This document shows, piece after piece, positions 41,501-44,500 of a DNA stretch of 64,000 nt. Under the pieces are notes generated by a model. That model searched no databases and was not told the DNA's origin. It was given only the letters and a program-made list of their open reading frames with translations. This DNA is from Lingula anatina (taxonomy: Eukaryota; Animalia; Brachiopoda). The DNA is taken from NCBI GenBank assembly GCA_051362555.1, contig CM120641.1:32866401-32930400 (forward strand), in the 5' to 3' direction. Numbering within the stretch: position 1 is the first letter of the stretch; each line of letters begins with the position of its first letter. A program made the translations under genes and the position numbers.

Positions 41501-44500
41501 AAGTTCACCAGCCAGACATTTGAAGAAGGGAAGAAAACAATCACAGATTACCTGAGGAACTGCCATGAGGAGATGATGGTGGGGATCCACAAGAGGAACA
41601 GGGAAAGAGGAGAAAGCAAACTTAGTTTTGAGGTAAGAACAGCATTTCTCTTTTTGTCTAGCATACATGAATGTGTAATGTCTATAGTGTAAGATTGTTA
41701 TCCCCCCCCCCCAAAAAAAAAATTGATGAATAAATAAAATGATAGAATAAAATTGTTTTCTAAGTAAAAATTGTGTGTAGCTTAAATGCAATGTGTAGGC
41801 TTTCCAAAAAATAAAACCTATCTGGATTATTGATTAACCATACTTTCTTTATTTTGGATATCAGAAAGAGATTCTTGAGCCCTTTAGAAACAGAGGCAAG
41901 CAGGAAACAAACCGGTACAATAACATTATGACACAGATGCACAACCAGCACTCATCTGTTCTTCGACAGTGGCGCTCTACCAAGAACTTCTTTATGGGAG
42001 AAAGAGGTGCATGGTCGGAAAAGTGAGTCCAACCACATAGTATTTACTATATACACTATAGAGGAAAGACGGACATTTTTGCAGTGAATGCTTCTTTCTC
42101 ATGATGCATTATTGTTCACTTCTACTGGGATCAGGTATTTTTGAAGTAGTCAGTCTGATCACAGTGGTATTCTGAAACATGCATCTTTATTTCATTTCCC
42201 AACTTTGAAACTTTATTGCTAATTCATGCTTTGGCTTTTTACAGAGCCATACCAGATGTACACTGGAAACTTTCAAACCATGAAAATTTCTCCAGAATGC
42301 GTCCAAAATTGATCCAGAACTACAACTTTGATTTGCACACAGAGGCCAGCAGAGCAAGGGATAACTTAGGTGAGAATGCACACATAATAAAAGTTCCCAT
42401 CACAAAGAATTTTATGCCTCCTCCACCACATCTGGTGTGAGATTCATGAGGCGACCATGAAAAATACAATATATATAGATTGATTAATATTTGGTTGAGT
42501 AAGGCTGCTATTGTTTGTGCCAGACCCAAATGATATGTTACAATTTTGAAGGATTATCAGAAAGGTCATCTGTATAAGTATAAAAGTGCTTAAAGTTTAT
42601 ACTTACTTAAATTAGAGCTTGATTTTAAAATAACTTTGTTTTCCTGAAGGTATTGGGAACCTGTGGGAGAAAAAATGTTGCAAAAGTCATTATTAGTAAC
42701 AATCAACCTGAAAAGTTCTCATGCATATTGAAGAGTTGATACAAAAAGGAAATTTTTGGCCATAGATTCTGTTGATCATTTTGAAAAGGTAAGCAGCAAA
42801 GGGTTTTTTCTAAATCACATGAGGTTCATTGTTTGGACAGGTCCAGATCTTCAGCAGCAGGCACTGGAGCCCCACTCAGACACACCCCTTGATGTGCTGA
42901 AGGAAGTGAAGGTGTCTCAGGATAAAATAGGAGATGACAGACTCGGTGATGAGGAGTGGAGGATCATCAGTTCTGCCAGGTAAGTGAAGGTGTCTCAGGA
43001 TAAGATGGGAGATGACAGACTGGGAGATGAGGAATGGAGGATCATCAGTTCTGCCAGGTAAGTGAAGGTGTCTCAGGATAAGATGGGAGATGACAGACTG
43101 GGAGATGAGGAATGGAGGATCATCAGTTCTGCCAGGTAAGTGAAGGTGTCTCAGGATAAAATAGGAGATGACAGACTGGGAGATGAGGAATGGAGGATCA
43201 TCAGTTCTGCCAGGTAAGTGAAGGTGTCTCAGGATTAAATTGGAGATGACAGACTGGGAGATGAGGAATGGAGGATCATCAGTTCTGCCAGGTAAGTGAA
43301 GGTGTCTCAGGATTAAATTGGAGATGACAGACTGGGAGATGAGAAATGGAGAATCATCAGTTCTGCCAGGTAAGTGAAGTTGTCCCATGATAACATTGAC
43401 AGAGGACAGACTGGGAGATGAGGAATGGAGAATCATCATTCCTACCAAGTAGCATAGCCTAGACAATTGGTGCCTTATAAGTGAAATAATGGTGAATTTT
43501 TTTGTCTTTGATTACATTGTCTTTGTCAGTGATAAGATTCCACTTCAGCTGAGATATGGAACAAAATTATTGTATTTTACACTTGAGGATCAGCATAGAG
43601 AAATATGACATTTTGTTATATTTACACAAATGTCTAACTTATGTAATTATTTGTTTGATCATAAGTCTGAAAATTGGTTAAAAATCAGTTTATTTGATGA
43701 ATGTTTCTAATCCTGCTTACAGTGAGGGAGCTACTGAGGAACTGACAGGGAAGGAGAAGCTGATATTTTCAGAAAACTGTGAACTTATAACTTTAGTAGA
43801 TGTTATCCCTGGCAGGCTTGAGCTAACTTCCAGTTTCTTGTATTTTTTTGACTGTCGGCCAAATAAGGAAGAAGGTGGGTGCAATGTGTTGTTGTAGAGA
43901 AAAACATATGAAGTAGTATTAAAAAAAATTGTTAAAACAAACAAACAAAAAAAAGAAACAATGATCATGTATCATACTGAAACCATATAAAAAAATTGAC
44001 AGAGGTATTGGTGATAACTGTGTGCCTACTACTGAAATTTTGCAGGAATCATGCATTGCTTAGACCCCATTTCCAGAGATTAGATCGATCTACTTTAGAT
44101 CGACCTAACTCCCTGGGGGTTCACGCTAAATGGCTGACCCGCTAAATAGCTGTCAGCTGGGCGGACACGAAAGTTAATTACCCCCTTACAGCTTGTAGTA
44201 GGCGGGGCGGACATTTAAGCCGGATTATCTGAAAGTAATCTAGTGAGACTCCCCGCGGGGATAGATCGATCTAAAAGCTCTGGGAATACAGCCTAAGTTG
44301 CTGTTTTTCGTTCTCAGGAATGAGTAAATTTTTTGGCACATCTCATTTCAGGGACTGGGGAAGACTTCAAACTCTCACTAGTGCAGCTCAGAGAAATCCA
44401 CTTTAGGAGGTACAATCTCAGAAGAAGTGCCTTAGAGATCTTTTTAGTTGATCAAACAAATTACTTTCTGAACTTCCAACAGAAGGTAAGCAGACCACAT

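What the first reader, a model, noticed from the sequence alone, without database searches (positions are those of the whole stretch)
42904..43448. Chain of back-to-back 78-nt GT...AG units after an NBEAL exon: possible recursive splicing or intron-birth intermediate
Seen: the last ~76 nt of the exon plus its donor are tandemly copied, and an aagtgaag microhomology between exon and donor marks the junction. This gives six perfect CAG|GTAAGT sites 78 nt apart, so each unit begins GTAAGT and ends TTCTGCCAG, like five abutting mini-introns with zero-length exons. Using any distal donor without removing the units reads AGG TAA, a stop upstream of PH-BEACH-WD40. Established: AG|GT ratchet points mediate recursive splicing, and tandem duplication of AGGT-containing exon sequence is a proposed route of intron gain. 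Inference: the locus must select the first donor, splice recursively, or yield NMD/truncated isoforms in proportion to copy number.
Basis: partly seen in the sequence, partly recalled or inferred. Interest (0 to 1): 0.7.

Follow-up and report, generated by a model that had tools for sequence, protein, structure and literature searches.

The report
Silent splice-donor minisatellite in NBEAL intron
In an invertebrate's NBEAL gene, the end of one exon and its splice signal are repeated six more times inside the intron; the RNA reads examined join the exon straight to the next one, so this is likely a harmless, variable-length repeat of a kind already known from lancelets and humans.

Summary
In detail: six CAG|GTAAGT sites 78 nt apart follow exon 41 of a 58-exon NBEAL1/2-type gene, and any distal donor gives a stop. 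The array is a donor-spanning minisatellite, the amphioxus 'mirage' or human F7 IVS7 type. All 26 listed RNA reads leaving the exon go to the exon at 43723, and two more runs show zero depth over 43374-43660. An independent DNA run holds an array with other copies; another appears to hold the exon plus one old copy, so copy number likely varies. The 'diagnostic SNPs' vary with exon haplotype and cannot mark copy use across animals. Recursive splicing is unlikely (743-nt intron, no branch-point motif, G-rich units) but untested, and the unit end scores as a fair acceptor. Which RNA animals carry the array is unknown; a leak of a few percent is not excluded. Four of the five other tandem duplications in this gene also span a donor (post hoc P about 0.001-0.003). 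The scan found this repeat type before on other DNA.

The parts
20520..51819 (+). Host gene, NBEAL1/2-type BEACH protein; hand-built model of 58 exons, one open frame of 2724 aa
   Evidence: Single stop at 51817; Pfam DUF4704, DUF4800, PH_BEACH, Beach above cut-off, NBCH_WD40. Only the junctions at 41632/41865, 42022/42245, 42369/42841 and 42979/43723 were seen in RNA.
42841..42979 (+). Exon 41; its last 76 nt (42904-42979) are the source of the repeat unit
   Evidence: RNA joint 42369 to 42841 and read depth; alignment
42980..42985 (+). First donor GTAAGT, inferred to be the one used
   Evidence: Keeps the frame open; 8 + 18 reads leave at 42979 with the next exon's letters; donor score 12.5, above all 36 leave-one-out scores
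42980..43369 (+). Five near-identical 78-nt copies U1-U5, each ending CAG before a pseudo-donor (43057, 43135, 43213, 43291, 43369); each opens with an in-frame stop, U4 and U5 hold a second
43370..43454 (+). Old decayed copy U6 and its decayed donor (CAA|GTAGCA, score 1.5, below all 36 true donors); a U6-like copy is also in DNA runs X4 and X10
43455..43722 (+). Ordinary AT-rich remainder of the intron, with a CTAAT branch-point-like word at 43707-43711 and the true acceptor at 43722
   Evidence: zero RNA depth 43374-43660 in X12 and X18
43723..43874 (+). Exon 42, joined to exon 41 in mRNA
   Evidence: loose-end letters at 42979; depth
29775..29866 (+). Second donor-spanning repeat in the gene: 39-nt unit, 2.4 copies, donor 29781 followed by two intact GTAAGT copies; distal use would stop the protein at 595 aa
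   Evidence: no RNA laid here
35275..35493 (+). Third: 112-nt duplication of an exon end and donor 35336, second donor decayed
36543..36642 (+). Fourth: 48-nt duplication over donor 36547, second GT changed to AT
49071..49211 (+). Fifth: 67-nt duplication over donor 49084, second CAG|GT intact; distal use would stop the protein at 2556 aa
   Evidence: no RNA laid here

Best explanation
This is a minisatellite whose first unit spans the exon 41/intron border of an NBEAL gene; it likely varies in copy number, and splicing likely takes the first donor and removes the whole 743-nt intron in one step, leaving the five downstream donors nearly silent. History (inferred): an old tandem duplication copied the exon's last 76 nt and the donor into an existing intron (U6). 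The copy's own donor decayed. Unequal exchange between the exon and the old copy then added U1-U5 in some haplotypes. The perfect GTAAGT may itself be a product of the junction (GT of the old donor plus the unit's first letters). Tolerance (by analogy with human F7): the most upstream of identical donors wins. Rare use of the second donor would give a stop 17 junctions before the gene's end, and that transcript would likely be degraded.
For: Shown: 8 reads in X11 and 18 in X17 (two studies) leave at 42979 with the letters of exon 43723. No go-back joint or loose end with copy letters reached the 3-read listing limit in the three RNA runs (57, 10 and 78 reads laid). In X12 and X18, 11 and 20 reads cover 43352 and depth is 0 from 43374 to 43660; letters private to U4/U5 are in 0 of 15 and 0 of 13 reads at 43314. 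DNA run X3, from another study than the best holder, has a contig with copy, intact donor, copy, and two other copy junctions. X10 has one 8911-nt contig aligned 43294-43903 with exon-type letters, stopping where exon and copy differ, consistent with exon plus one old copy. Young copies share letters with old-copy alleles. Copies are not kept as coding (extra stops). Precedent read: F7 IVS7 uses only the first site, and the next takes over when it is mutated (PMC1557585); amphioxus mirages vary in copy number and do not disturb splicing (PMC3087553).
Against: No RNA run is matched to a genome known to carry U1-U5. X17 and X18 share an exon letter (C at 42950) with X10, the haplotype that seems to lack the young copies, so the test may be empty for those animals. 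Depth is low: 0 of about 57 reads allows up to about 5%, and NMD would hide more. No laid stretch held both the first donor and the true acceptor, and the RNA joint row was crowded out by a transposon. The unit end scores 8.2 bits as an acceptor, above 27 of 36 true ones. Contigs show presence, not absence, so X10's short allele is not proven.
Confidence: 0.83

Rival explanations
1. Distal donors are used often enough to matter: stop-containing transcripts go to NMD and lower NBEAL output in proportion to copy number.
For: All six donors are identical and score at the top of the gene's range. Human IFI6 and CBS use two pseudo-sites besides the true one (PMC1557585 introduction). ABCA7 retains one VNTR unit in about 2% of transcripts, and these rise with cycloheximide (PMC5954066 section 21). 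A leak of that size is below what can see.
Against: No read was seen running from the exon end into a copy. In ABCA7 use of the cryptic donor did not change with VNTR length. In F7 distal sites do not compete.
Confidence: 0.08
2. Recursive splicing: each 78-nt unit is removed as a mini-intron, each CAG serving as acceptor and regenerating GTAAGT, so the final mRNA equals the direct product.
For: Unit ends match the fly consensus (Y)nNCAG|GTAAGT (PMC5126111) with a short pyrimidine run, and score 8.2-8.8 bits, above 94-96% of 109 intronic CAG decoys. The end product cannot be told from direct splicing in the reads laid.
Against: The same acceptor-like word is the coding exon's own end. The 38 nt before it are 37% G (maximum 24% among 57 true acceptors) and hold 4 AGs (1 of 57 true acceptors has as many). 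The unit has no YTNAY word, which 44 of 57 true acceptors have. 78 nt is shorter than all 57 modelled introns (minimum 111). Known cases lie in long introns and are conserved; this intron is 743 nt and the units differ between animals.
Confidence: 0.05
3. Intron birth by AGGT duplication: the exon's internal AAG|GT at 42911 pairs with the same word in a copy, making a new intron and using a copy as a new exon. With U1-U3 this would keep the frame.
For: The product is in frame and full length for U1-U3. The route works in a human minigene (PMC3265369 Results) and was proposed for mirages.
Against: The internal donor scores 2.6 (above 1 of 36 true donors) and the matching acceptor -1.1 (below all 36). 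U4 and U5 would give a stop. X17 carries G to A at 42911 in 19 of 19 reads, which removes the AG. U1/U2 letters at 42926 and 42929 are not listed in X11 or X17. The existing intron is of ordinary size without the array.
Confidence: 0.02
4. The array, or its exact copy number, is an assembly artefact.
For: U1 and U2 are identical. No read or contig laid spans the whole reference array.
Against: U2-U6 each differ. An independent DNA run holds copy-donor-copy junctions.
Confidence: 0.02

Closest known systems
Amphioxus 'mirage' minisatellites (Adh3, globins BflGb6 and BflGb9, troponin C, PGBD5); PMC3087553 passages of abstract and section 16 seen, PMC3902484 one passage seen
   Same: Tandem copies of an exon-intron border running into the intron; units of 10-160 nt; splice signals kept in many copies; copy number differs between haplotypes (6 vs 3 in BflGb6); the border unit escapes homogenisation, as U6 does here; normal splicing; more than one gene per genome affected.
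   Different: Different animal group (earlier scan notes call this genome a brachiopod; not checked here). The unit is almost all exon (76 of 78 nt), so each copy ends in AG directly before the next GT. Five donor-spanning repeats lie in one gene.
Human F7 IVS7 37-bp VNTR, with IFI6 (6-16), CBS IVS13, LMNB2 (100 bp) and PDGF (81 bp); PMC1557585 abstract, introduction and first results section read
   Same: First unit spans the exon-intron border; identical pseudo-donors follow; 5-9 copies in F7; only or mostly the first donor is used.
   Different: The F7 unit has 4 exonic nt, this one 76. F7 pseudo-sites were shown to work by mutation; not tested here.
Human ABCA7 intron 18 VNTR; PMC5954066 abstract and section 21 read
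   Same: A cryptic donor one unit downstream gives a premature stop subject to NMD.
   Different: ABCA7 alleles reach kilobases and their length changes skipping of the next exon; no such effect was measured here.
Recursive splicing at ratchet points; review PMC5126111 main text read; the primary paper PMC4471124 is not held
   Same: YAG|GTAAGT word inside an intron.
   Different: Known sites lie in long introns, are conserved and are shown by intermediates; here the intron is 743 nt, the sites are copies of a coding exon end, they vary between animals, and no intermediate was seen or could be seen.
Intron gain by tandem duplication: ATP2A1 (PMC3265369 abstract and Results); potato RdRp (PMC4974935 abstract only)
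   Same: Local duplication that copies AG|GT words.
   Different: No extra intron or exon is seen in mRNA; the duplication lengthened an existing intron.

Membership tests
Mirage / donor-spanning minisatellite | Tandem unit of about 10-160 nt whose first copy spans an exon-intron border | tested here: met
   78-nt period, 6.8 copies, first unit 42904-42981 over donor 42979
Mirage / donor-spanning minisatellite | Splice signal repeated in the intronic copies | tested here: met
   Five further CAG|GTAAGT; the last copy's donor is decayed
Mirage / donor-spanning minisatellite | Normal mRNA is made | tested here: met
   26 listed reads join exon 41 to exon 42; zero depth 43374-43660 in two more runs. 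Genotypes of these animals unknown.
Mirage / donor-spanning minisatellite | The first donor, not a distal one, is used in animals carrying the array | tested here: inconclusive
   Letters private to U1/U2 and U4/U5 are absent from mRNA, but no DNA-RNA matched pair was available
Mirage / donor-spanning minisatellite | Copy number and content vary between haplotypes | tested here: met
   Content differs in X3; X10 contig fits exon plus one copy; X4 inconclusive. Exact counts not measured.
Recursive splicing site | YAG|GT consensus with pyrimidine run | tested here: met
   Score 8.2-8.8, above 27 of 36 true acceptors
Recursive splicing site | Branch-point motif and intron-like context upstream | tested here: not met
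   No YTNAY in the unit (44 of 57 true acceptors have one); 37% G against a maximum of 24%
Recursive splicing site | Lies in a long intron | tested here: not met
   743 nt; gene median 341 nt
Recursive splicing site | Site is conserved | tested here: not met
   Copies differ or seem absent in other animals under the same species label
Recursive splicing site | Intermediates, lariats or saw-tooth nascent coverage | not testable with these tools
   Only short-read runs, six of nine labelled poly(A) or oligo-dT, were listed; intermediates would look like shorter alleles
Intron gained by AGGT duplication | A new intron bounded by the duplicated AG|GT words is removed from mRNA | tested here: not met
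   Weak sites; no such letters in mRNA; AG lost in X17's allele
NBEAL1/2-type BEACH protein (host gene) | DUF4704, DUF4800, PH, BEACH, WD40 in this order | tested here: met
   Pfam hits on single exons. That DUF4800 marks NBEAL1/2 is recalled; no tree was built.

The most novel reading that the evidence does not exclude
Exon 3' ends and 5' splice sites in this genome are hot spots for tandem duplication through a process tied to transcription or donor recognition, and this array is the most expanded of five such events in one gene. Four of the five other clear tandem duplications in the 31-kb gene span a donor and none an acceptor (0.64 expected, P about 0.001; P about 0.003 if only intronic or donor-spanning events survive; post hoc, one gene). 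That would give a handle on how mirages arise, which PMC3087553 calls unclear. A bolder reading, stepwise removal of the 78-nt units, is put at 0.05.
Probability: 0.2. Interest if true: 0.55.

Novelty: new member of a known kind. Interest (0 to 1): 0.17.

Why it matters
As a single locus it matters little: it is one more donor-spanning minisatellite with normal splicing. It is a clean natural test of 'first donor wins' outside mammals, with six identical strong donors and alleles that seem to run from one to six intronic copies. The larger question is why such repeats cluster at donors; five in one gene make that testable genome-wide. If units were removed stepwise, recursive splicing would extend to very short spacing, but nothing here shows that.

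Tried and rejected
No whole genome is held for this window, so the donor-bias test is limited to one gene. A homolog search with the long exon 37688-38521 among longer proteins found nothing (weak evidence). No RNA holder was listed by the index; RNA runs came by species label. The 8-nt microhomology could not be shown. The 211-aa antisense ORF 42876-43511 was rejected: one Pfam match below cut-off, and the stranded runs X11, X14 and X12 show one read direction only over the unit. RNA structure as a mask of distal donors: z = 0.22 for 42902-43140. I expected the unit end to score as a poor acceptor; it did not. A blastn self-search missed two short-period duplications and was replaced by an offset scan. 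That scan's boundary rule missed the focal array's own donor (it prints 4 of 6; the count is 5 of 6), which does not affect the 4-of-5 figure; 4 of its 10 rows fell below the shuffle threshold and were dropped, none spanning a splice site. A first exon list had frame errors and was corrected; one candidate exon (31279-31340) was dropped, and exon 24646-24711 is optional for the frame. One search included a high-copy transposon that crowded the joint and loose-end tables. Paper searches found nothing; 42 and 45 and the passages gave no report of recursive splicing at minisatellite units (not an exhaustive search; supplements were not opened).

Full report
Observation. The array is as described. 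Six CAG|GTAAGT sites lie 78 nt apart (42979 to 43369) and there are no others in the window. Tandem Repeats Finder gives 6.8 copies at 95%. Five intronic copies are nearly identical; a sixth (43370-43448) is decayed and ends in a donor scoring below all 36 true donors tested. The claimed 8-nt microhomology is the first part of the next unit. Behind the last copy the match stops after GTA, so the strong GTAAGT may have been made by the junction. That is inference.

Host gene. Single exons hit Pfam DUF4704, DUF4800, PH_BEACH, Beach and NBCH_WD40; the NBEAL1/2 label for this order of domains is recalled. A hand-built model of 58 exons from 20520 to 51819 gives one frame of 2724 aa when donor 42979 joins acceptor 43722. 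Any distal donor stops the protein at 1920 aa, and skipping the exon stops it at 1880 aa. Introns are 111-2359 nt, median 341. This intron is 743 nt, or 353 nt without U1-U5, and ends in ordinary AT-rich sequence with a branch-point-like word. It therefore existed before the array. Earlier scan notes call this genome a brachiopod; I did not check that.

RNA. Five of the nine listed RNA runs were laid, from three studies, on two stretches flanking the core of the array; 6-26% of each run was read. On 41800-42990, 57, 10 and 78 reads were laid for X11, X14 and X17. Eight reads in X11 and 18 in X17 leave at 42979 with the letters of exon 43723; X14 had too few to list. No go-back joint or loose end with copy letters reached the 3-read limit. 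On 43292-44500, where U5 stands in for the exon end, 11 reads of X12 and 20 of X18 cover 43352 and depth is 0 from 43374 to 43660. One X12 read holds intron letters just before the acceptor. Zero of about 57 reads allows up to about 5% distal use, and NMD would hide more. No laid stretch held both splice sites, so the joint is read from loose ends and depth.

The proposed SNP test fails across animals. At 42944, 42947 and 42956 X17 has the copy-type letter in 19 of 19 reads, as part of a haplotype that also differs in other exons. X11 has 8, 17 and 9 of 17. All three changes are synonymous. Letters private to U4/U5 are absent (0 of 15 and 0 of 13 reads at 43314), and those of U1/U2 are not listed. 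The main limit is that the genotype of the RNA animals is unknown. X17 and X18 share an exon letter with X10, which may lack the young copies.

DNA. Three of the ten listed DNA holders were laid. X3 has a contig reading copy, intact donor, copy, and two other copy junctions with different letters, so an array exists outside the source assembly and differs in content. X10 has one 8911-nt contig aligned from 43294 to 43903. Its first unit has exon-type letters and the match stops where exon and copy differ, which fits exon plus one old copy; contigs cannot prove absence. X4 is fragmented and inconclusive. X10's old copy carries the two letters that mark U1/U2, and the reference U6 shares letters with U4/U5. 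This suggests exchange between the exon and the old copy.

Recursive splicing. For: the unit end matches the fly consensus (PMC5126111) and scores 8.2 bits on a matrix built from this gene, above 27 of 36 true acceptors. Against: that word is the coding exon's own end, and 12 of 57 donors here end YAG|GT. The 38 nt upstream are 37% G (maximum 24% in 57 true acceptors) with 4 AGs. The unit has no YTNAY word (44 of 57 true acceptors have one). It is shorter than every modelled intron. Known sites lie in long introns and are conserved. The reads cannot show intermediates, so this remains untested, at about 5%.

Intron birth. A real in-frame route exists, from the exon's internal AAG|GT at 42911 to the same word in U1-U3. 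Both sites are very weak, U4 and U5 would give a stop, and X17's allele has lost the AG. About 2%.

What is known. Minisatellites whose first unit spans an exon-intron border are described for human F7, IFI6, CBS, LMNB2 and PDGF. F7, LMNB2 and PDGF use only the first donor; IFI6 and CBS also use two pseudo-sites (PMC1557585). In F7 the next site takes over when the first is mutated. In amphioxus they are called mirages, vary between haplotypes, leave splicing normal and were proposed as a source of new introns (PMC3087553; PMC3902484). In ABCA7 the second donor is used in about 2% of transcripts, independent of repeat length (PMC5954066). I reached the F7 comparison by my own search; the mirage and ABCA7 papers were leads from earlier scan notes that I then read in part. 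Supplements were not opened. The scan has noted the same repeat type in several other genomes and, for an acceptor, in this one (unchecked notes).

A side result. Six tandem-like duplications in the gene pass a shuffle threshold; five span a donor and none an acceptor. Without the focal array it is 4 of 5 against 0.64 expected (P about 0.001), or P about 0.003 if only intronic and donor-spanning events survive. The first-donor rule could explain why donor copies are tolerated but not why they outnumber purely intronic ones. The test is post hoc and on one gene. Copies anchored in a conserved, GC-richer exon are also easier to detect.

Verdict. A new member of a known kind. First-donor use with silent pseudo-donors, confidence 0.83; interest 0.17.

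Noticed in passing
window 29775-29866, 35275-35493, 36543-36642, 49071-49211: Four more tandem duplications in the same gene span a splice donor; two keep intact downstream donors. Only one comparable duplication is purely intronic (26868-27055). Post hoc P about 0.001-0.003.
   Followed up: partly
window 44060-44290: Very high-copy non-coding element with inverted ends (MITE-like) in intron 42; thousands of reads and contigs from elsewhere pile on it. An X4 contig skips 44062-44295 and the X10 contig has other letters in place of 43904-44344, so it looks like an insertion polymorphism.
   Followed up: partly
window 11134-12461: Nine tandem units of acceptor, 60-63-nt acidic exon-like piece and donor, in two interspersed types; the four of 60 or 63 nt are open in one frame, the five of 62 nt have a stop near the end in that frame. 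Host gene and expression not examined.
   Followed up: partly
window 42245-42248 and coding exons 41865-42979: High exon polymorphism between animals: X17 differs from the window at 17 listed coding positions, and the first letters of exon 42245 differ in X11, X14 and X17.
   Followed up: no
window 37048 and 47640: Two GC donors among the 57 modelled introns, and one AAG acceptor at 49606; not checked in RNA.
   Followed up: no
window 53213-54859, minus strand: FtsJ-like methyltransferase gene lying tail to tail with the NBEAL gene.
   Followed up: no
window 56371-58053: Two blocks of a 160-nt tandem repeat; earlier scan notes mention repeat-carrying rolling-circle elements in this genome, not compared here.
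   Followed up: no
window 59700-60900: Broken ORFs that look by eye like a LINE reverse-transcriptase remnant; the two ORFs tested had no Pfam hit.
   Followed up: no
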